Made by a program: the position numbers and the translations under genes. The notes beneath the pieces are model-generated. The model made no database searches and was not told where the DNA came from. It saw only the letters and a program-made list of their open reading frames with translations. From Squalus acanthias (lineage: Eukaryota): a DNA stretch of 64,000 bases. The DNA lies in NCBI GenBank assembly GCA_030390025.1, contig CM059430.1, positions 160,332,001 through 160,396,000 on the forward strand, read 5' to 3'. How positions within the stretch are numbered: position 1 is the stretch's first letter; every line of letters begins with the position of its first letter. Of the stretch, positions 1,720 through 64,000 are shown one piece after another.

Positions 1720-2533
1720 GGGGGGTGATTTTACCAAGAGGGGTGCATTAGAGGCGGGACTGCTGCTTGGCGGGTCGATGGCCCGCCTCCATCGATTTGT
1801 GGCCAACCCACGCTATTTTCCCTTGGTTGAATGTTAGCGGGTTTAGCAGGCCAATTAAGGGGAAGCCGGTTACAGAGAACGTCAACGTATGACGTTTCAT
1901 CTGTCAAAAATTTTTGACAGATGAATTGTCATCGTTTGACAGCTCTGTGAAGCTGTCAAACACTGACATTCTCTGTAGTTTGATGAGTTCTTGAATTCAA
2001 GACCTCATCAAACCTCTTTCTTTTGCAGAAATTAGATGGTTGCTGCATTGGAGAATGCAACGGCCATTCTGTCATCTCTACTGTGGAGGTTCGAGACTCT
2101 CTGCATACCCAACGATTGAAGACTGCAGGAAGAAACAAAGGTAAGTACACTTTTTCTAACACTTTCCACTTACCTCAGATACTCACCTCTCCACACTTGC
2201 ACCCATCACTCACCTCCACAGCGCACTTTTGCACCCCTCTGACCCCCGCAGACCCACTTCTCGCCTCGGTGACCCTGGCAGGGTTCGGAGCCTTCGGGAA
2301 GCCCGCACATTTGTGGGTAAAATGGGGATAATCCTCTTATCTGCCTGTTAACTACCTGTTAACTGGCAGATAAGTGGCACTAATCCCCTTCCCGCCTCCA
2401 AGGAGACGGGACCCGGCGCGGGTCGGCTACCCGCCTCCTGGCAAGCTGGCACGGAGTCAGGTTGGGCACCCGCCCCCAAATTCTGCCATTTTCCCAGCAG
2501 TCCCGCCTCCCCAGGGCTGGCAAGATCGCGCCC
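1720..2533. mobile_element. Harbinger-type MITE family A
   Basis: GGGGGTGATTTT ... AAGATCGCGCCC imperfect TIR. Colinear with 19297-20143. Confidence 0.8.
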
Positions 2534-5458: not shown

Positions 5459-6315
5459 GGGGCTGGATTTTACTTACTGAGACGAGTTGGGGGCGGGACT
5501 GCTGTCTTCCGGGTTCTAGTCCCGCCCCCCAGCGACGTCTGACAAACAGATGTTATTTTGCCCTGATTGGCCTCGTTAAGCCCGCCCTGTGGGCTTGCTG
5601 GCCAACTAAGGGAAAGCCGGTGTCACATGACATCAGTTGATGGCGCTTCATCGGCCGGTTTTCTTAAAGGCATATGCACCACACTTGTTTGACAGATGAT
5701 TTGACAGTGTTTGACAGCATTGAGGTGCTGTGAAACACTGTCAATCACTGTCCACAGGTGAGCCCTTTCACCCAGGCTCTCCAATTACTCTCCCCTTAGG
5801 ATAAAACAGATGGCAGCTGCAGCTGAGAATGCAGAAGCCATCTGTCACTTCTCCCGATGAGATGAGGCTACACAAACACTTCACAGCTTGTCACCTGCAG
5901 AAACATCTAACCACATAAAAAATTACTTTCCCAACATTTCCTTACCTCTGATACATTGTCCCATTGCAGCCTTCGCACCACTTCTGCAGCTGTCATCCAA
6001 ACACCAACATAACAACAGACCCACAGCACACCTCACTTACCCTGGCAGGGTTCCCCGACGTCAGGAAGCCCGCAGCAGCAGTCGAAAATTGGGAAAAGCC
6101 TCTTAACTGCCTGTTAATTACCTGTTAACAGGCAGTTAAGTGGCTATAATCCTCTTCCCGCCGCTAGGAGTCGGGTCCCTGCGCAAATCGGGGACCCGAC
6201 TCCTGGGAAGATTGGTTGGAGGCAGGTTGGGAGCGGGTTCGGGACCATTCTTTTTGACTTTCCCAGCAGTCCCGCCTCCAAACCCACCTCCTCAGGGCTG
6301 GTAAAATCTAGCCCA
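5459..6315. mobile_element. Harbinger-type MITE, family A relative
   Basis: cat|GGGGCTGGATTTT ... AAAATCTAGCCCA|cat. Shares subterminal blocks with family A. Confidence 0.8.
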
Positions 6316-14560: not shown

Positions 14561-16811
14561 AGAAACAGTCGGATACTGTGATGGGGAACTGTAGGTTTTT
14601 TCCTGGATGGGTGAGTTAGGTTGGGTCCAATGGTTTTCCTAGTCTGTATCTATTTTGTAATGGTATGATTGTGCTTGTGAATAAATTCCATGCAGTAATG
14701 AAGTGTACATCATGTGAATCAGCAAACTATACCCAATTTGCATCGTTACAGTACAGTGGGACTTCTCCTTTAACAAACAATGTGTTCAACGCCCATAGTT
14801 AGAGATACAATTGAAAGGAAATTGAGCTTTGTGTGTTAAACCACTTTTACCACATGTGTTGCGTCCAAAACCATGTGACAGTACTTACAAAAGAATACTG
14901 TGTTTGTCTTTCATCTATTAAAGAAAAGTTTTATCATAACTGTATTCAGTGTTGGTGCCTTCTCATTTGTACTACTTCGGTAATTAAAGACACCGTGAAC
15001 TGATATATTTTCTAACACTTGTAAAAGAAGGAACTATTTATTTGTAACATGCAAATATTTTTTTTTGTAATTTTCTTGGAAATTTTTCTCCACTCCCCTC
15101 TCTCTCTTGAAGATCCTGAATCATGCTGGGGTATGGGTGCACAGTTGCAGCAGCTAATTCCCCCAATTTTTCCCCTTATTTCGTGAATGCGATGACTGTT
15201 GCTGGAGTACAGCCCTGCAGTATTTTGTCCAAGAGGCCATTCTTCATGTGTGAACCTCGGCAGTGAATGTTGCAAAGTTATTCAACCACCGGATACATAA
15301 CCCAAACCTACTTCAGTTCTAACCCAAAGTCTTCATATCCAGTAGGGGTAGTAGTCAGGGGTGGGAACCCTGGCTGATTTTCCTGCTCTCTAGGTTTGGG
15401 ACGACAAAGCCAATTGTTGCGTCCCATCTGTTGCCCATCTAAGACCAGCTCACTCGGTGCAAACTGGTTTGTTTTCCCAGTATGTTTAACCATTGGGGGA
15501 AGCTGTCTCAGGTTTTGCTCTCAATTCAACCTTTTTGGATCTGCTTCTGCTCTTTTAGTATTTCCACACCCCTACACTGCTTCTCCACTTCCTTCCCTAG
15601 TTGCATCTTTCCAAAGTCTTGCGCACAGATTAATAGAGAACCCCACAATCGCACCGGGATTATGTCATCTTAATCATCTCCTGACAAAAAGAAATGTTTC
15701 CATTTTTCCTGTTTTTTTGATTGTACGAATGAGTCAGATCTACAAAATGCTTTCAAGTCAAGGAGGACTGGGTAATTATTTTAGTTAATAATAAGCGTGT
15801 CACCGCCCCCCCCCCCCCCCCCTCCCTCCACATCTAGGACTTATCTGAGGGCACTGCCAGCAAGGCAGATGGCCCAAATTCATTCCCTGACGTCGAACAA
15901 GCTGCCTCTGGAGGTGCAACAGGTGCCGGCAAGCTCGCTTATATTATTAAAATGAGGCCCGAAGTTCAATTTCAGGAGAGTTTCAGGCTTCTGGTGTGCG
16001 CTTGGCTAGTGTGAGCCCAGAAACAGGCCGAAATGAATTTCTACCCCAGTGTCCTTTGAATGGAATGTATGCAAATGAGGACACATTGAACCACAAATTT
16101 ATCCCACGCTTATAGCATACAAGAGGCATTTCACCCATTGCCATTTAATATCGTCTGGATGTGCATTGGATTCCTACATATGTATATGCTGCAGGATGCT
16201 GTAGCTTAGAACCTATACTTATCCACTATATAATGTCATGATAATTTTACGTAAACCCAGGGTCTGTGATGAGTTAGTTTATCTCTGCTGTTGTGACAAG
16301 AGCAGAACCATTGGCCTTAGCACCCCTGTGCTAGAGAGGTGACAACTCAGCCAGGACCCCCACTCCTGGTTGGTATCCATTGATCCCTGCTAAAGAGTGT
16401 ATGTGTGTGGGCATCAGGTGAGGACAAGGAACATAGGAACAGGAGTAGGCCATTCAGCCCCTCGAACCTGTTCCACCATTCAGTTAGATCATGGCTGATC
16501 TGTATCTTAACTCCGTTTACCTGCCTTGGTTCCGTAACCCTTAATACCCTTGCCTAACAATAACCAGACTGGATTCTGTGGTTCCTCCCCCCCGCCCCCC
16601 CGCCCCCCCCCCCCCCCCCCCCACCCCCAACATAATCAGAACACATACTGACAGTCAGTGTTTAGGTTCATAAATGAAGAATGACCACCAGAATGAGGTG
16701 CAGGATATATATCCAAGTGAGATTTAAACCCTTCATGAGAGGAGAAAACATTTTTGTAAAATCTCTGCTCTTGCAGTGAGGCCTAAGTCTGACTGTTCTC
16801 TGTTTTTCCAG

Positions 16812-17112
16812 GCCTGGAGGAAGCGTTGGTTTGTGCTACGTAGTGGTCGATTGAGTGGCAACCCAGACGTCCTTGAATACTACAAAAACCACCACTCCAA
16901 GAAACCGCTCCGCATGATAAACCTCACTGAGTGCGAGAATATTGAAGCTGGGTTAAAGCTCAGTAAAAAGGAATTCCAGAACAATTATGTTTTTGAAGTT
17001 AAGACTCCAGCTCGTACATTCTACTTGGTGGCTAAAACTGAGGATGAAATGAACAGATGGGTACGGCACATCAGTCTGATCTGCGGGTTTAGCCCGAGTG
17101 ATGATGGAACAG
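16812..17112 (+). CDS. GAB3: GAB3 coding exon 2 (PH domain)
   Basis: ttccag| acceptor and G|gtacaa donor, 301 nt. Encodes [24 protein letters not shown]...[28 protein letters not shown]. The WRKRWF, GNPDV, EFQNN and VAKTE residues match GAB3 better than GAB1/2 (from recall). Confidence 0.95.
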
Positions 17113-18590: not shown

Positions 18591-19296
18591 AAGGCCATCA
18601 TTCGACCCTGCTGCAGAGGAAGCTGACCCAGCTCATTCACTACTCTGAATCAAATAGCGATGAACATTGCTGGGTTTTTCTATCAGGTCTGATTTGAGAG
18701 AAGCGGACATTGTTAGGGGTATTTTTGACAGGATAGAAGCTTCTCTTCGGGCTAATAGAGCTACTTTAGGCATTTCAAGTCACTTCCTTTGTGATCGTGG
18801 CTAGCAGTTGTGTGATTTATTCCACCCAGATAATTACAGTCCTACCCACTTATTACGACATTTCGGGGACCGTTCTAATATTGTCGACATAAGCAGTTTG
18901 CTTTGAATTGACGTAAAACTGACCAGAGAATCCTGAATCACTGGCTCTAAACCCCATCCCTACTGTGTTTGTCACCCACACAGATCAAAGTAACATTATT
19001 TAATAAAGAAAATTCCAACTATCGCAAATAGTAACAGTAAATATTACATTATAAAAGTGCCAATTGTAGCGCGAGGTACGAAGCTGACTAAAAAAATGTT
19101 GATACCCAGTCTGATCAGTTCCCAGTACTCGTCCCTTGCCCTTGATGCCTGGGATGTGGCCGACCCTTGACCCCTGTGTGACGCTATCTCCCTGGCGGAC
19201 CCTGATTCTATTTAGTTGCCTCCACTGACCCTGCACTGCTGACTAGCCAGCCTATTTCTAGCAACTCCATCATCACCAACAGCCAGCTTGACACAA

Positions 19297-20143
19297 GGGG
19301 GGCGATTTTTGCCAATGTGGGCGCGTTGGAGGCGGGACTGCTGCTTGTCGGGTCGTTGTCCCGCCTCCATTGACTTCTGGCCAACCCACGCTATTTTCCC
19401 TTGATTGACCTTGTTAAGCCCGCCCAGCGGGCTGAGCAGGCCAATTAAGGGAAAGCTGGTTACAGAGAATGTCAGCGTATGACGTTTCATCTGTCAAAAA
19501 ATTTTGACAGATGAATTGTCATCGTTTGACAGCTCTGTGAAGCTGTCAAACACTGACATTCTATGTTGTTTGATGAGTCCTTGTATTCAAGACTCATCAA
19601 ACCTCTTTCTTTTGCGGAAATTAGATGGTTGTTGCATCGGAGAATGCAGCAGCCATCTGTCATCTCTGCCGGTGAGATGCGAGAGTCTCCGCATCCCCAA
19701 CTGTTGAAGCCTGCAGGAAGAAACAAAGGTAAGTAAACATTTTCTAGCACTTTCCACTCACCTCACATACTTACCTCTCCACACTTGCACCTATCACTTA
19801 CCTTCACAGCGCACTTTTGGACCCCTCTGACTCCCGCAGACCCACTGCTCGCCTCGGTGACCCTGGCGGAGTTTCCCTACGTCGGGAAGCCCACGCTTCA
19901 CTTGGAAAAATGGGGATAATCCTCTTAACTGCCTGTTAACTACCTGTTAACAGGCAGTTAAGTGGCTGTAATCCCCTTCCCCCCTCAAGGAGATGGGACC
20001 TGGCGCGGGGCAGCTACCCGCCTCCTGGCATGATGGCACGGAGGCGGGTTGGGGGCGGGATGGGCACCCACCCCCAGATTCTGCCATTTTCCCGGCAGTC
20101 CCGCCTCCACACCCGCCTCCCCAGGGCTGGCAAGATCGCGCCC
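19297..20143. mobile_element. Harbinger-type MITE family A, nested in 18837-20498
   Basis: Colinear with 1720-2533 over its full length. Confidence 0.85.
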
Positions 20144-20165
20144 ATGGTCTTCATCTCCTGCGGCC

Positions 20166-20252
20166 ATGAGCTCCAAAGCCAACCTGGCAGTAGGCATCCA
20201 ACTGGGTACCACCTACCCCAGTGTTGGGGCCTTCCAGCACAACAAAGTGTGA
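20166..20252 (+). pseudogene. HSP70-family N-terminal fragment inside a transposon
   Basis: gcggccATG then MSSKANLAVGIQLGTTYPSVGAFQHNKV*. 16 of 21 residues match the HSP70 signature [21 protein letters not shown]. Confidence 0.8.
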
Positions 20253-20696
20253 GCAGTATAGAGAACGTGGCGGGAAGGAACGGCGGAGAATCTCTGTCGA
20301 CATAAGCAATGAGAGACATAAGCCGTTAATACTTTTAGGGACTTAAAAATGTTTGTCAACTTAAGTGAGCCAGGGTTTATGTCGACATTAACATGACGGT
20401 TAGTTCTTGGTATTAATGTGCGAAGATAAGACTTTACTTTTATGTCGACATAAGTGAGATGTTGACATAAACAGGTTTGAGGTAAGTAGATAGGACTGTA
20501 CTATTGTTGCTGCCCATCTTTTCTGTTTTTATTTGGTGAAGAACGCTATCTGTAGTTATTTATCTTCCTGGTCAGTTAAATAAAGTGTAGAGATAATGTT
20601 GTTTACTACTGAATAGTGTGTCAGGACAAATGGTATTCTTGAAGCATTACAGTATAATTTTTACCATGTGCTCCAAAGGTATCTCATTATTAGATA

Positions 20697-21471
20697 AAAA
20701 TGAGAAGTCGCACAACACCAGGTTATAGTCCAACAGTTTTATTTGAAATCACAAGCTTTCGGAGTGCTGCTCCTTCGTCAGGTAAAGTGAAGGAATACAA
20801 ATCAGCAAAGCATATATAGACAGAGAACAATGTGTTTCTGACTGCCCTCCATCACACCTCAGCAGAGATACAATCAGTCAGGAAGGCATTACATCAAAGA
20901 CACAGCAAAATACAGCTAAAACAATGAGGTGGGGTCACAGGGGGTCCAACGTGTCAAATGCTGCAGTCTGCAGTTAAGCTTTTTACTTTTTTTTTAAACT
21001 GGAAATCACATCTGTGAACAAGACAACGACGACTCGAGTCTGGATGACTCTACGTCATGTCACGCTACATGACGTAGAGTCATCCAGACTCGAGTCGTCA
21101 TTGTCTTGTTCACAGATGTGATTTCCAGTTTTAAAAAAAAAAGTAAAAAGCTTAACTGCAGACTGCAGCATTTGACACGTTGGACCCCCTGTGACCCCAC
21201 CTCATTGTCTTAGCTGTATTTTGCTGTGTCTTTGATGTAATGCCTCCCTGACTGATTGTATCTCTGCTGAGGTGTGATGGAGGGCAGTCAGAAACACATT
21301 GTTCTCTGTCTATATATGCTTTGCTGATTTGTATTCCCTCACTTTACCTGACGAAAGAGCAGCGCTCCGAAAGCTTGTGATTTCAAATAAAACTGTTGGA
21401 CTATAACCTGGTGTTGTGCGACTTCTCATTTTTGTCCACCCCAGTCCAACACCGGCATCTCCGCATCATGG
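20697..21471. mobile_element. Palindromic Penelope-like element (inverted pLTR plus unpaired tail) with 13-bp TSD
   Basis: Arms 20696-21060 and 21067-21433 are reverse complements around a 6-nt loop. A 38-nt unpaired tail follows. TCATTATTAGATA is repeated at 20684-20696 and 21472-21484. Confidence 0.85.
21344..21380 (+). ncRNA. Minimal hammerhead ribozyme motif (mirror copy on - strand at about 20749-20785)
   Basis: CTGACGA, stem II (GAGC-AGC-GCTC), GAAA, then GCTT with palindromic AGCT stem III, as in Penelope-associated hammerheads. Confidence 0.65.
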
Positions 21472-21837
21472 TCATTATTAGATATGATAGAATATTATCA
21501 TATTGTGATACTTAAAATGAAAAATCAAAATCAAACAAAGTTCTCAAATGCACAACATAATGACATAAATCACATCATGAAGCATCATTCTATAACTTGC
21601 ACGTCATTATTCTAACAAAAATGAAGCATGATTTTTCTGCTTCTTTTCCTTCCCAGCAAAAAAACATGCTTGCTGAACTTGTTTCTCATGAAGAGAGTAA
21701 TCTTAATAGTTTTTAATTTTGACAGACCATTTTTTTCAGATGGGCCAATGTATTCTTGCAAAGTCCATGTCTGTCTAACACTTCAGTACTATACTTATAT
21801 CTGGGAAGTTTCTCCTATCACTTCTTTCAAACTCTTA

Positions 21838-24800
21838 GGCAGGGGGTTGGGCACCTGAGCAGGGAGACAGAGGAAAGCGTGTCAGGAAGGGACAGAAGGT
21901 ATGGAGTAAAAGATAAAGTGTTAAAAAAGGAAAAAGCAGGAACTAAGTGTCACAAAACATATTTGAAAGTTCTTTATCTGAATGCACGTAGCATTCGTAA
22001 CAAAATGGACGAGTTAACGGCACAAATAACTACGTATGGGTATGATCTTGTGGCCATTACAGAAACATGGCTGCAGGGTGACAATGACTGGGAACTAAAT
22101 ATGCCAGGGTATTTAACAATCAGGAAGGACAGGCAGGAAGGAAGGGGAAGTGGGGTGGCTATGTTAATAAAGGAAGGAATCATTGTAATACAGAGAAATG
22201 ATATTGGGTCAAAGGATCAGGATAATGAAACAGTTTGGGTGGAGATAAGGAATAATAAGGGGAAAAAAACACTAGTAGGAGTTGTATATAGGCCTCCTAA
22301 TAGTTGCAACTCTGCTGGAAGAAGTATTAATCAGGAAATAGTTGGGGCATGTAATAAGGGAACAGCTATAATTATGGGGGATTTTAACTATCATATTAAC
22401 TGGACAAATCAAATTGGGCAGGGCAGCCTTGAGGAAGAGTTTATTGAGTGTATTAGGGATGGATTTCTTGAGCAGTATGTAACTGATCCTACAAGGGGGC
22501 AAGCAACCTTGGACCTGGTCCTGTGTAATGAGTCAGGATTAATTAATAATGTCCTAGTTAAGGATCCCCTTGGAATGAGTGACCATAACATGGTTGAATT
22601 CCATATCCAATTAGAGGGTGAGAAGGTTGGTTCTCAAACAAGCGTACTGAGCTTGAATAAAGGAGACTATGATGGTATGAGAGCGGAATTGATTAACGTG
22701 GACTGGGAAAATAGATTAAAGGGTAAGACGGTACATGAGCAGTGGTGTTCATTTAAGGAGTTATTTTACAACTTTCAAAAGAAATATGTTCCACTGAGGA
22801 AAAAAGGGTGTAAAAGAAATGACAGCCATCCGTGGCTAAGTAAAGAAATTAAGGATAGTATCCGACTAAAAACAAGGACATATAAGGTAGCCAAACTTAG
22901 TGGGAGGATAGAAGATTGGGATGTCTTCAAAAGACAGCAAAAAGTAACTAAAGGATTGATTAAGAAAGGGAAGATAGATTATGAAAATAAATTAGCAAAA
23001 AATATAAAAACAGATAGCAAGAGTTTCTATAATTATATAAAAAGAAAAAGGGTGGCTAAGGCAAACGTAGGTCCCTTAGAGGATGAGACCGGGAAATTAA
23101 TGGTGGGAAACATGGAGATGGCAAAAATGCTGAACAAATATTTTGTTTCAGTCTTTACGGTAGAGGACACTAAGAATATCCCAACACTGGACAAACAGGG
23201 GGCTCTAGTGGGGGAGGAGCTAAATACGATTAAAATCACTAAGGAATTGGTACTCAGTAAAATAATGGGACTCAAGGCGGATAAATCCCCTGGACCTGAT
23301 GGCTTACATCCTAGGGTCTTGAGGGAAGTGGCAGTAGGGATTGTGGATGCTTTGGTAATAATTTTCCAAAATTCCCTGGACTCAGCAAAGGTCCCGGCAG
23401 ATTGGAAAACTGCTAATGTAACACCCTTATTTAAAAAGGGTTGTAGGCAGAAGGCTGGAAATTATAGACCAGTTAGCCTAACATCTGTGGTGGGTAAAAT
23501 TTTGGAGTCTATTATTAAGGAGACAGTAACGGAACATTTAGATAAACATAATTTAATAGGACAAAGTCAACATGGCTTTATGAAGGGGAAGTCATGTCTG
23601 ACAAATTTGCTCGAGTTCTTTGAGGACATAACGTACAGGGTGGATAAAGGGGAACCAGTGGACGCAGTGTATTTAGACTTCCAGAAGGCATTCGACAAGG
23701 TGCCACATAAAAGATTATTGCTCAAGATAAAAAATCACTGGATTGGGGGTGATATTCTGGCATGGGTGGAGGATTGGTTATCTAACAGGAAGCAGAGAGT
23801 TGGGATAAATGGTTCATTCTCGGACTGGCAACCAGTAGCCAGTGGTGTTCCGCAGGGGTCGGTGCTGGGTCCCCAACTCTTTACAATCTATATTAACGAT
23901 TTGGAGGAAGGGACCGAGTGTAACATATCAAAGTTTGCAGATGATACAAAGATGGGAGGGAAAGTAGAAAGTGAGGAGGACATAAAAAACCTACAAGGGG
24001 ATATAGACAGGCTGGGTGAGTGGGCGGAGATTTGGCAGATGCAATACAATATTGGAAAATGTGAGGTTATGCACTTTGGCAGGAAAAATCAGAGAGCAAG
24101 ATATTATCTTAATGGCGAGAAACTGGAAAGTACTGCAGTACAAAGGGATCTGGGGGTCCTAGTGCAAGAAAATCAAAGTTAGTATGCAGGTGCAGCAGGT
24201 GATCAAGAAGGCCAATGGAATGTTGGCTTTTATTGCTAGGGGGATAGATTATAAAAACAGGGAGGTATTGCTGCAGTTATATAAGGTATTGGTGAGACCG
24301 TACCTGGAATACTGCGTACAGTTTTGGTGTCCATACTTAAGAAAAGACATACTTGCTCTCGAGGCAGTACAAAGAAGGTTCACTCGGTTAATCCTGGGGA
24401 TGAGGGGGTGGACATATGAGGAGAGGTTGAGTAGATTGGGATTCTACTCATTGGAGTTCAGAAGAATGAGAGGCGATCTTATTGAAACATAAGATTGTGA
24501 AGGGGCTTGATCGGGTGGATGCGGTAAGGATATTCCCAAGGATGGGTGAAACTAGAACTAGGGGGCATAATCTTAGAATAAGGGGCTGCTCTTTCAAAAC
24601 TGAGATGAGGAGAAACTTCTTCACTCAGAGGGTAGTGGGTCTGTGGAATTTGCTGCCCCAGGAAGCTGTGGAAGCTACATCATTAAATAAATCTAAAACA
24701 GAAATAGATAGTTTCCGAGAGGTAAAGGGAATCAGGGGTTACGGGGAGCGGGCAGGAAATTGGACATGAGGCTGAGTTCGGATCGGTCAGGGCCCTGTGG

Positions 24801-37450: not shown

Positions 37451-37480
37451 TTTCTGAATCGGATGATTTTCTTTTTGCAG

Positions 37481-37941
37481 AAGCAACAGCTGTTCCCCAT
37501 GTGATAGATCACTCGATTATTCCTTTGAGTTGACAGGATCAGAGGATATTCAGGAGAATCTACAGCCCAAGAGTGGCACCCCAACGCAGACGTCTTGCAG
37601 TGTACCTCTATATAAAAACGTGCAAGATTCACAAATGGTCATTCTTCCCAGCCAAGATCAAAGTGGACCTTCTTCAGCATCCTCATCTCCATTGTCAGTT
37701 TATTCATTCTCGCAGATCTTTAACTTTGACAAAAACCACAATGCTTTGCCCTTTGGTGTCACGGGTATTCATCTTTTGTCCAACACCCCACCCCCACGGC
37801 CACCGAAGCCAAACCAACTAACGGAGCGTGAAAAGCCACACAAGGTGATTCAGAATGGAGATGGTGCCTATGCTGTAAATCCAGCACCAGTACCCAAAAG
37901 AATCCCTCTCTCAAGCCTAGAGAAAACAAGAAGTTGGAAAG
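37481..37941 (+). CDS. GAB3: GAB3 coding exon 4 (Grb2 SH3-binding proline-rich motif)
   Basis: ttttgcag| ... G|gtaata, 461 nt, phase 2 to 1. Encodes SNTPPPRPPKP and VPKRIPLSSLEKTRSWK. Confidence 0.93.
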
Positions 37942-38099
37942 GTAATATTACTGAACCGGATATTGGTGTAGGTCTTGTAGGGCTTTGCTTTGCTCAGGTG
38001 AATAATGTTTATTCAATTTATTAATACCCATTAATATTCCCATATTTTCAGAAGGTAACCCAAAGCAGCTTTTTTAAGCATGCTTCAAATTTTGATGCC

Positions 38100-42970: not shown

Positions 42971-43187
42971 CAATATGTTTCTGTACAGTTGGCCTAACAT
43001 TCATCGTAATTTTTTGTTTATTTAAATCATAGAACTTATGTTTCAGAAAGCGGCAATTCAACTCACTGTGTGTGAGCCATTGTTCGCTCCTGTACTGCAA
43101 TCTAAAATGTAATACATCACATCAGGTGCTCTGAGATGTTTCACCATGGCATTATGTAAACACAATTATTTTTCTTTGTTAAAGCAG

Positions 43188-43434
43188 AAGCTCCCTGGCC
43201 AGCAGTGTAGTACCACGGACAGCGCTGATGACAGTTATGTTCCTATGAATCCAGGATCCTCTCCAGTAATGTCTGCAGCTGACTGCACATCAGATGGTTA
43301 CATCCCCATGAGTCCAGCCTGTACTAATCTGGTCTTCCCATCAGTCACCACAGACAATCTGCCATTACCTACACTTCCTACAGACATTGAACCTCCTCCA
43401 GTTAACAGGAACCTCAAGCCTCGAATCAGAAAGA
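43188..43434 (+). CDS. GAB3: GAB3 coding exon 6 (YxxM PI3K-p85 sites, atypical Grb2 site)
   Basis: Tandem acceptor aag/cag/aag (start 43185, 43188 or 43191) and A|gtaagg donor. Encodes DSYVPM, DGYIPM and EPPPVNRNLKP. Confidence 0.93.
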
Positions 43435-44067
43435 GTAAGGGTGATTTCTAATATACACGTTATATATAACTATATATATATATATATAGAGTAGGATTTT
43501 GTCTGTTCACTAGTTTAGTGAAATTGTAAACATGAACATGCAGAGCACATTTAACATTTTTCTGCCAATAGCTAAAAGAAGATATCTTATACCATGACGA
43601 ATGATACAGAATTAGACAGAATGCACTTTGGGAACAGAGAGATTATGGCTGTCTCTAAGGTTCCAAAATTTACATCTCAATTCCATTTTTTAATAACATG
43701 TTTATGTAATAAGTAATTTGAGAACTTTAGTTGATCTTCTCTTTTTCTTTTATAGCGGTGCAGGTGAAGTTACTTTATTGGTTGGTAGTTATACCATGGA
43801 GGAGGCTTTTGCTATATACTGTCTTCTTCATTATAAACAATGCGGGTGTAAATGAAAATGTGCAAGTCATTTTATCTCGGGAAAGATATGTTCTTATGAC
43901 TCGCTTGCCTGCTTAGTGTTAATCAATAGGAGCACCCAGAGGGATAGGCTGTAGTTAGAGGCACAGAGTGCAAATGTGATCCTGATACTGAGACTGTAAC
44001 GCCCTTTCTTAGCAATATCTTGGTAATAGAAACCAAACAGTTTAGTAACCACTGATTTGGTGTCTCT

Positions 44068-63157: not shown

Positions 63158-64000
63158 GGCCGCGATTTTGCCGGCGCTCAGAGAGCGGGTTTGGAGGCAG
63201 ATCAGGAGTGAAAATCTAAATGATTGACGGCGGGTTGCGAACCCTCCGCCATCCCGCCTCCACACAACTTTGCAAAGTGTCGGGTCTGCGAGTCCCGATC
63301 AGACCCGACACCAAGCGGCGGGAGAGGCACTTAAGGCAGTTAACAGCTTGTTAACTACCTACATAATCCCATTTTACCAGGCTCCTCCCATTTTACGACA
63401 TTGTCAGCGTGTTGCCCGTCGTGCGCCAAACACGCCAGCTGATTGTGCCGGGTTCAGCAACTACCTGAATTCTTGACAGCTGCTCCTGCAGCATAAAAGC
63501 GGACGTGTAACATGGCTGACTTTCAGATGACAGAACTTTGTGTTTTGAGGTTTTGGAACACATTTTGCAGGTCTATTGAGCTTGTAAGTGTATAAGCTGA
63601 GATCCATATGCACTGTGACCTCCTTGGAATACCCTCTGGCCACATTGATTGAGCACTTATAACATCTATTCCTCAACTGAGATATATACCAACAGATTGG
63701 GAACCATTTATACCCTCTCCTCCTGGTCCTCAGAATCGGAGGAAGAGCAGCCGCGGCAGCAGCAGAACCAGGCACAACAGCAGCAGCAACAACAGGAACG
63801 CCAACCTCCTCCTCAGCCACCTGATGCTGCACAGGGCAGAGGGCGTCAGTGCAGGGCTACACCTCGCCGCAGGAGATACCCCCAACACAGGGTTTACAGG
63901 CAGAGGATAAGCTTCCTCAACATGACTGAGCAGCAGTGCCAAAGGAGGCTGAGACTTTCGCGAGAGGTAGTCGCTGACATCTGCACAATGCTGCACCAAT
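63158..64000 (+). mobile_element. PIF/Harbinger transposon left end, runs off window; inserted in a Deu-SINE head
   Basis: The GGCCGCGATTTTG terminus and about 200 bp are homologous to the end of MITE 44068-44944. A transposase-like frame follows. Confidence 0.75.
63697..64000 (+). CDS. Harbinger/HARBI1-like transposase N-terminus (partial, not in ORF track)
   Basis: Open for 101 codons to the window end, from a TTG rather than ATG. A Gln-rich leader precedes RRRYPQHRVYRQRISFLNMTEQQCQRRLRLSREVVADICTMLHQ. Confidence 0.7.
   Translation, partial: MGTIYTLSSWSSESEEEQPRQQQNQAQQQQQQQERQPPPQPPDAAQGRGRQCRATPRRRRYPQHRVYRQRISFLNMTEQQCQRRLRLSREVVADICTMLHQ

What the first reader, a model, noticed from the sequence alone, without database searches (positions are those of the whole stretch)
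18837..20498. TA-flanked TIR element carrying a captured HSP70 start segment (Pack-mariner-like)
Seen: TIRs with TA TSD enclose non-transposase cargo. The cargo includes gcggccATG followed by MSSKANLAVGIQLGTTYPSVGAFQHNKV (20166-20252), 16/21 identical to the HSP70 phosphate-1 signature region. Similarity stops abruptly before EIIANDQG. A later Harbinger-type MITE (19297-20143) split the cargo just upstream of the ATG. Known: host-gene capture is established for Pack-MULEs, CACTA elements and Helitrons, and much less reported for vertebrate Tc1/pogo elements. Inference: a transposon family may be dispersing an HSP70 5' segment, possibly with UTR or promoter DNA (a TATAAAAG lies at 19050).
Basis: partly seen in the sequence, partly recalled or inferred. 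Interest (0 to 1): 0.85.

Follow-up and report, generated by a model that had tools for sequence, protein, structure and literature searches.

The report
Jumping gene carrying HSP70 gene's start
An old, non-coding DNA transposon carries the front end of one heat-shock (HSP70) gene and sits at nine or more places in this genome, but every copy found lacks the core heat-shock promoter and is decayed, so it is likely a fossil of gene capture rather than a working switch.

Summary
Confirmed. 18837-20498 is a non-autonomous pogo/Tigger-type element with TA flanks. Its cargo matches one intact HSP70 gene on C16, the only match among 15 HSP70 loci tested: upstream DNA (-290 to -161, 80%), 5' UTR and 28 codons (81%). 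At least nine copies with Tigger-type end sequence and unrelated flanks share the same junctions, so capture happened once and the element then moved. The same ends occur on decayed transposase-coding parents. All nine copies lack about 90-100 bp of the donor holding its CCAAT box, proximal heat-shock element and TATA box. The TATAAA at 19050 is not the HSP70 TATA box. Changes fall roughly evenly on all codon positions, copies are 12-24% from their majority, and the insertion is shared with other organisms at 95-96%. The younger 846-bp MITE starts at 19298. This is a multicopy Pack-TIR (Tan et al. 2021). Their four multicopy vertebrate cases were hAT or Kolobok, none pogo. The scan earlier noted a similar BAZ1A capture elsewhere in this genome. 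Two sister derivatives with the same ends carry other cargo whose source was not found.

The parts
18835..18836 (.). left TA target-site duplication
   Evidence: TA precedes most of the family ends listed
18837..18930 (+). left end of the pogo/Tigger-type element: terminal inverted repeat, subterminal repeat and a box shared with the group X sister elements; corresponds to the parent's 3' end
   Evidence: (84% over 58 bp to transposase-bearing L103)
18925..19110 (.). segment of unknown source found only in 4 cargo copies (window, two on C2, C15); holds the TATAAA at 19050
   Evidence: no match to the donor's 28 kb, to parents, or elsewhere in the genome at this sensitivity
19100..19142 (+). 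remnant of the donor's short tandem repeat (-788 to -741 from the ATG)
   Evidence: 80-87% in sister copies; orthologues in runs X18 and X19 have 19 extra bases at 19132 that occur letter for letter in the donor (table 4)
19143..19272 (+). captured HSP70 upstream DNA, donor -290 to -161
   Evidence: 80% over 130 bp, E 3.7e-29; score 130 against 16-21 for 14 other HSP70 loci, shuffle maximum 30
19273..19297 (+). deletion junction (donor about -160 joined to about -65) and start of the 5' UTR part
   Evidence: alignment of eight copies, donor and C7; 6-bp direct repeat at -161 and -69 in the donor
19298..20143 (.). younger 846-bp MITE, probably PIF/Harbinger-type, nested in the cargo
   Evidence: 8149 first-look candidates, the 39 best other copies 93-95% identical; 3-bp flanks identical in 7 of 18 sibling copies, within one mismatch in 13 of 18
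20144..20249 (+). captured end of the HSP70 5' UTR and codons 1-28 (ATG at 20166)
   Evidence: 81% over 95 bp to donor -10 to +84; 34 of 46 identical at -19 to +27 against 8-18 of 46 for 14 paralogues; PDB match
20250..20293 (+). filler shared by the cargo copies, source not found; supplies the TGA after codon 28
20294..20498 (-). right end of the element = 5' end of the transposase-coding parent (the cargo lies antisense to the parent's transposase)
   Evidence: 71% over 217 bp to L124, whose frames hit DDE_1, HTH_Tnp_Tc5 and CENP-B_N
20499..20500 (.). right TA target-site duplication
16810..17112 (+). host PH-domain exon (approximate start; GAB-type adaptor by recall). The element lies about 1.7 kb downstream in the intron, cargo in the same sense
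   Evidence: (PF00169, E 4.8e-20); gene name recalled, not shown or 77

Best explanation
This is a decayed, non-autonomous pogo/Tigger-type DNA transposon that carries the upstream DNA, 5' UTR and first 28 codons of the intact HSP70 gene on C16, likely copied in once by template switching during DNA repair or replication and then moved by the parent's transposase to at least nine sites. Shown: the donor match, the shared junctions, the separate insertion sites, the parent's transposase remains, and the loss of the core promoter in every copy. Inferred: (1) a transposase-less derivative picked up at least 1.1 kb-spanning donor DNA at the DNA level; (2) a deletion of about 90-100 bp, compatible with slippage between two 6-bp repeats, removed the CCAAT box, proximal heat-shock element and TATA box before amplification; (3) further internal deletions and additions gave three structural variants; (4) the family died and copies decayed neutrally; (5) a younger MITE entered the window copy before the split from organisms C, D and E, and a LINE/SINE-type piece entered the donor at -290. 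The window copy most likely has no function.
For: Donor: only C16 of 15 HSP70 loci matches upstream and UTR; it has three exon-like blocks covering 7-639 of a 639-aa paralogue with no stops. Nine copies on C2 (two), C4, C6, C14, C15, C18, C3690 and C3612 carry family end sequence. No flank is shared between loci among 14 flanks from 8 copies. Same internal and right junctions across copies. Upstream DNA to -1111 in C14 and -1052 in C15 argues for a DNA template. No family end at E<0.05 in 28 kb around the donor. Parent: DDE_1 above cut-off in L103 and L124. Decay: differences from the donor 24/154, 30/153, 36/155 at codon positions 1-3 in six copies, against 11, 9, 29 of 99 each for a live paralogue. 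Age: 12-24% from the column majority; the orthologous insertion with both MITE junction sides is 95-96% identical in runs X18 and X19, and the left side in X10.
Against: The capture step itself cannot be seen. Both outer breakpoints adjoin sequence of unknown source, so microhomology there was not shown. Only three copies show clear TA plus inverted repeat at both ends (window, two on C2); the others have one end or damaged ends. Copies against their majority show a slight third-position excess (28/190, 31/190, 45/191; p=0.059). A fragment on C7 holds the same upstream DNA without family ends and without the core deletion, so the order of events and the exact template are not settled. On the right-end tree the six HSP70 copies are not one side of a branch; group X falls among them.
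Confidence: 0.85

Rival explanations
1. The family dispersed working heat-shock control DNA, or makes small RNAs against HSP70, and some copies have been co-opted.
For: C14 and C15 keep the donor's distal two-unit heat-shock motif from -1012. The window copy sits in sense in a host intron, keeps the ATG, and has a splice-donor-like site at about 20245. It is retained in related organisms. ATG plus Ser-Ser-Lys/Glu is kept in 4 of 9 copies.
Against: The proximal HSE, CCAAT and TATA segment is missing in 9 of 9 copies. The window copy lacks the distal motif too. Orthologues differ by 4-5%, as do the flanks on the same contigs. At 80% identity small-RNA pairing to the donor would be poor (inference).
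Confidence: 0.07
2. The real template was a second, now lost HSP70 locus or an earlier intermediate, of which the C7 fragment is the remnant.
For: C7 shares with C14 and C15 the join of about -981 to -770 and a longer tandem repeat than the donor has. It is as close to the copies' majority as the donor is (13.7% each). It keeps CCAAT and a TATA-like remnant.
Against: No HSP70 coding match in 28 kb at and after the C7 fragment. The C16 gene matches UTR and coding parts in one place. The differences are also explained by later insertions at C16. The 132-column tree is a star with no starred branch.
Confidence: 0.25
3. The cargo came through RNA: the part from about -65 is the 5' end of the mRNA, or the missing 90-100 bp were spliced out of a longer transcript.
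For: The right-hand block starts roughly 25-30 bp after the donor's TATA at -93, where a start site would be expected (established knowledge). A C-rich run ending in AG lies there (printout).
Against: The cargo is colinear with upstream DNA out to -1111. There is no poly-A and no 3' part, whereas reverse transcription starts at the 3' end. A 6-bp direct repeat brackets the gap; 23 of 6500 comparable deletions would have one.
Confidence: 0.07
4. The copies are independent gap-filling events or segmental duplications, not transpositions of one captured element.
For: Most animal Pack-TIRs are single-copy and arise by gap filling (PMC8277862). Three structural variants exist.
Against: Identical internal deletion, right breakpoint and filler across copies; unrelated flanks; none on the donor's contig; TA at intact ends.
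Confidence: 0.02

Closest known systems
Multicopy Pack-TIRs of animals (Tan et al. 2021, PMC8277862; read: abstract, sections 7, 9 and 14, found passages, and matching rows of supplements 4-8 and 10)
   Same: Host DNA between the two ends of a TIR element, a unique parent locus on another chromosome with no element beside it, several copies at separate sites. Their frog example carries 291 bp of a 5' UTR in three copies.
   Different: Their four multicopy vertebrate families are hAT (three) and Kolobok (one); the 115 TcMariner cases, Pack-Tigger1 among them, are not listed as multicopy. Elephant shark had 0 Pack-TIRs, and 'hsp' had no hit in 12 supplement files. This case is older (80% against their 90% filter), has at least nine copies, and lost its core promoter before spreading.
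Plant Pack-TYPE elements including Pack-Mariner (Gisby and Catoni 2022, PMC8903248; found passages only)
   Same: Non-autonomous TA-flanked elements that carry gene fragments and split into subgroups by internal gains.
   Different: Plants; Mariner, not pogo; young (93-98% to donor in the examples read).
pogo superfamily, Tigger/pogoR families (Gao et al. 2020, PMC7386202; found passages only; author name recalled)
   Same: TA target duplication, inverted repeats of 40 bp or less, parent with CENP-B_N, HTH_Tnp_Tc5 and DDE_1 traces.
   Different: No transposase in this element; Tigger versus pogoR and the DDxD spacing were not determined.
Earlier scan note e1-8040238 (pogo/Tigger MITE with a BAZ1A exon, same genome; unchecked AI note)
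   Same: Multicopy host capture by a pogo-type element in this genome.
   Different: Other cargo, said to have over 100 copies; a look-up with this element's right end found no look-alike note, so it may be another family.

Membership tests
pogo superfamily, non-autonomous element | TA target-site duplication | tested here: met
   TA at both ends and before most family ends
pogo superfamily, non-autonomous element | short terminal inverted repeats (40 bp or less) | tested here: met
   18 nt including TA, 89% complementary; type 1 of PMC7386202
pogo superfamily, non-autonomous element | ends shared with an element coding a DDE_1 transposase with CENP-B_N / HTH_Tnp_Tc5 | tested here: met
   L103 and L124 share the ends; DDE_1 26.6 and 34.3 bits, cut-off 22; HTH_Tnp_Tc5 and CENP-B_N hit below their cut-offs
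Tigger family within pogo | placement on a transposase tree and DD29-36D spacing | not tested
   parents are frameshifted; no reference transposases were fetched
multicopy Pack-TIR | non-transposon DNA of 100-5000 bp between the two ends of one element | tested here: met
multicopy Pack-TIR | unique parental locus not flanked by the element | tested here: met
   1 of 15 HSP70 loci; no ends in 28 kb; caveat: C7 fragment
multicopy Pack-TIR | several copies at independent sites | tested here: met
   nine copies, no shared flanks among the 8 tested; a TA duplication cannot itself distinguish sites
multicopy Pack-TIR | not a retrocopy | tested here: met
   upstream DNA to -1111, no 3' part
multicopy Pack-TIR | microhomology at the capture breakpoints (common, not obligatory) | tested here: inconclusive
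   both outer breakpoints adjoin sequence of unknown source
Tan et al. list of young Pack-TIRs (search filter, not the definition of the class) | at least 90% identity and 80-120% length against the parent | tested here: not met
   80-81% with internal deletions; their pipeline would have missed it
PIF/Harbinger MITE (nested insert) | 3-bp target-site duplication | tested here: met
   7 of 18 siblings exact, 13 of 18 within one mismatch, 1 of 19 ends not found; this copy AAG/ATG
PIF/Harbinger MITE (nested insert) | ends shared with a Harbinger transposase element | tested here: inconclusive
   68% over 106 bp, E 0.006, to the element at window 63158, which is 86% identical to a DDE_Tnp_4-coding element on C7
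functional heat-shock promoter | heat-shock element array with TATA box | tested here: not met
   donor -150 to -70 absent from 9 of 9 copies
functional HSP70 gene or peptide | open frame under purifying selection, intact N-terminal ATP-binding motif | tested here: not met
   stop after 28 codons; the motif's Asp reads Gln, Asn or His in the three copies that keep the frame that far; even decay by codon position

The most novel reading that the evidence does not exclude
One pogo-type family in this lineage repeatedly captured host 5' regulatory DNA (HSP70; a promoter-like group Y cargo; a group X cargo) and seeded it across chromosomes, and some copies, such as C14 and C15 with the distal heat-shock motif, now act as regulatory elements: a vertebrate route for promoter shuffling by DNA transposons.
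Probability: 0.12. Interest if true: 0.72.

Novelty: new member of a known kind. Interest (0 to 1): 0.42.

Why it matters
Multicopy gene capture by DNA transposons is rare in the animal survey read here: four vertebrate families, none pogo-type, none in the one cartilaginous fish screened (PMC8277862). This is a clean, donor-resolved case with at least nine copies. It is old enough to fail that survey's 90% filter, which suggests that capture in slowly changing, repeat-rich genomes is undercounted (inference). The copies also preserve an older state of an HSP70 promoter. It gives no evidence for a new function.

Tried and rejected
Pfam on the 28-aa and 35-aa frames: no hit, too short. Source of the 18925-19110 segment: not found with two different copies as query or in the donor's 28 kb and 16 other loci. 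Donors of group Y and group X: every match examined carried family end sequence; none was a plain host locus. Expression: no RNA holder listed. Run X6 is only guessed to be RNA; its contigs cross the left flank into the element and the right end into the flank at depth 3.5-8 and do not cover 20196-20339; no conclusion drawn. No joint across the MITE or the whole element appeared among the 15 joints listed (322 more not shown), so no empty site was seen. I considered AAG/ATG a true MITE duplication at a recalled Harbinger target site; sister copies show 18-21 bp missing there, so this is left open. The tree of the upstream block is uninformative. C7: no family ends and no HSP70 coding in 38 kb. 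Literature: (Tigger, captured, hsp70, non-autonomous) gave 2 general papers, (shark, DNA transposon, captured gene fragment) 0, two unrelated papers, three, (shark genome, Tigger, MITE) 0. These were seen as listings only, except PMC6544945, where a find for HSP70 terms gave 0 passages in the main text. Subscription journals and repeat databases were not searchable, so the family may already have a database name.

Full report
Observation. The window is G000:C6:160332001-160396000 of a 3.7-Gb genome; earlier scan notes call it a shark (not tested here). TA dinucleotides at 18835-18836 and 20499-20500 flank an 18-nt inverted repeat, 89% complementary, with subterminal repeats inside both ends. 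The ATG at 20166 opens 28 codons whose 60 best listed PDB matches are all HSP70/HSC70 chains, best E 7.5e-5.

Donor. The DNA search with 20147-20498 gave 36 matches. One was the start of an HSP70 gene at C16:65234449 region, with three exon-like blocks, no stops and a cytosolic EEVD end. The window matches donor -290 to -161 (80%, 130 bp) and -10 to +84 (81%, 95 bp). I tested 15 HSP70 loci with a 5' end among the 30 loci fetched from 77 family matches. Only C16 fits: 34 of 46 identical at -19 to +27 against 8-18, and an upstream score of 130 against 16-21, with a shuffle maximum of 30. The conserved codons alone do not discriminate (41-47 of 57). Sister copies reach further upstream: -788 to -741, -1052 in C15, -1111 in C14. 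Orthologues of the window copy in runs X18 and X19 have 19 extra bases that occur letter for letter in the donor's repeat. No family end was found in 28 kb around the donor. Upstream DNA and no 3' part point to a DNA template (inference).

Copies. Four searches gave nine places with both cargo and family end sequence: C6 (window), C2 twice, C4, C14, C15, C18, C3690, C3612. This is a lower bound. Fourteen flanks from eight copies share nothing between loci (C18 not included). Three copies show clear ends on both sides; the MITE-free C2 copy is 870 bp, the window copy 816 bp without its MITE. The copies share the internal junction, and all but the truncated C4 copy share the stop of similarity at +84 and the filler after it. 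They fall into three left-hand variants.

Carrier. The same ends enclose decayed transposase DNA in L103, L093 and L124. DDE_1 passes its cut-off in two of them; HTH_Tnp_Tc5 and CENP-B_N hit below cut-off. With TA flanks and short repeats this fits the pogo superfamily, Tigger or pogoR (PMC7386202, passages). The window element keeps about 205 bp of the parent's 5' end (71%) and about 60 bp of its 3' end. The cargo is antisense to the transposase. On a tree of 29 right ends, six HSP70 copies and five group X copies are set apart from the rest with 100/98 support (three HSP70 copies without a full right end were left out).

The promoter is missing. The donor has CCAAT at -137, a two-unit heat-shock motif at -110, an inverted CCAAT at -98 and TATAAA at -93. 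All copies join about -160 to about -65. The -150 to -70 segment scores at shuffle level in 8 of 9 copies; C4 scored 22 with 4 of 200 shuffles as high, but its alignment shows the same junction. A 6-bp direct repeat lies at -161 and -69; 23 of 6500 comparable deletions would have one, so slippage is plausible but inferred. The TATAAA at 19050 lies in a segment with no donor match and is present in 2 of the 4 copies with that segment. C14 and C15 keep a distal two-unit motif from -1012; the window copy does not.

Decay and age. Against the donor, six copies differ at 24/154, 30/153 and 36/155 of codon positions 1, 2 and 3 (C4 and C3690 left out for poor alignment). A live paralogue differs at 11, 9 and 29 of 99 each. 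Against their own column majority all eight aligned copies give 28/190, 31/190 and 45/191 (p=0.059), a slight third-position excess that I report as against. Four of nine copies keep the ATG in a recognisable context. In the upstream block seven copies lie 12-24% from the majority, the donor 13.7%. Contigs from organisms C, D and E (two studies) run from the left flank through the element into the MITE with 31-36 differences in about 770 bp. Those from D and E run from the MITE end to the right flank with 21-22 in 560. Both insertions therefore predate those splits, and the family is several times older than them (inference).

MITE. 19298-20143 belongs to a family with 8149 first-look candidates, the 39 best other copies 93-95% identical, and 3-bp flanking duplications (7 of 18 exact, 13 of 18 within one mismatch). 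The link to a Harbinger transposase is weak.

Open points. A fragment at C7:104690750 matches donor -1138 to -133 in blocks, keeps CCAAT and a TATA-like remnant, has no family ends, and is cut by a Harbinger element. It may be an early intermediate or an independent duplicate. Two sister derivatives carry other cargo: group Y at 16 candidate places, with motifs that I recall as ZNF143- and NRF1-like, and group X at about 9 places. Their sources were not found.

Comparison. It works like, and meets the structural definition of, a multicopy Pack-TIR (PMC8277862; sections 7, 9, 14 read). That survey found 370 Pack-TIRs, four multicopy families in vertebrates (three hAT, one Kolobok), none in elephant shark and no 'hsp' entry. 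It required 90% identity, which this case fails. Five targeted searches found no report of this element. An unchecked scan note reports a BAZ1A capture by a pogo-type element in the same genome.

Verdict. A real, once-mobilised capture of an HSP70 5' end by a pogo-type element; a new member of a known but rarely seen kind; most likely a non-functional fossil. Interest 0.42.

Noticed in passing
L004, L009, L015, L019, L021, L128-L147 (for example G000:C1:161248036-161248371): Group Y: elements with the same pogo-type ends carry up to about 600 bp of non-transposase DNA with motifs recalled as ZNF143-like (both orientations) and NRF1-like, as in housekeeping promoters; 16 candidate places; donor not found.
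   Followed up: partly
L005, L017, L039, L043, L044, L151, L152, L203, L204: Group X: same ends, another internal sequence with a pyrimidine run ending in CAG on the reverse strand; clusters with the HSP70 copies on the end tree; donor not found.
   Followed up: partly
L097:3263-4000 (G000:C7:104690262-104691000): Copy of HSP70 upstream DNA without transposon ends or coding part, cut by a Harbinger element with a DDE_Tnp_4 frame.
   Followed up: partly
window 16810-17112, 37467-38024, 43113-43451: Exons of a PH-domain adaptor gene on the + strand, GAB-like by recall; the element lies in its intron.
   Followed up: partly
window 20693-21436: Fold-back structure with 306-nt arms at 98% plus an inner 74-nt pair, 200 bp from the element; resembles Penelope-type fold-backs by recall.
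   Followed up: no
window 21723-24182: 819-aa open frame with endonuclease and reverse transcriptase domains, a young LINE.
   Followed up: no
G000:C26:8.73-11.94 Mb; C1399; C1:3.84-3.86 Mb; C16:65.22-65.23 Mb: At least eight full-length intronless HSP70 frames on C26 and two on C1399, plus two split ones; intron-bearing HSP70 genes on C1 and C16.
   Followed up: no
L090, donor -740 to -291: About 450 bp with a high-copy LINE/SINE-type tail interrupts the donor's upstream DNA where the copies are continuous, so it entered after the capture.
   Followed up: partly
window 1721-2533, 5483-6314, 63158-64000: Two further copies of the MITE family (85% and 68%) and the start of a Harbinger-type element 86% identical to the one on C7.
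   Followed up: no
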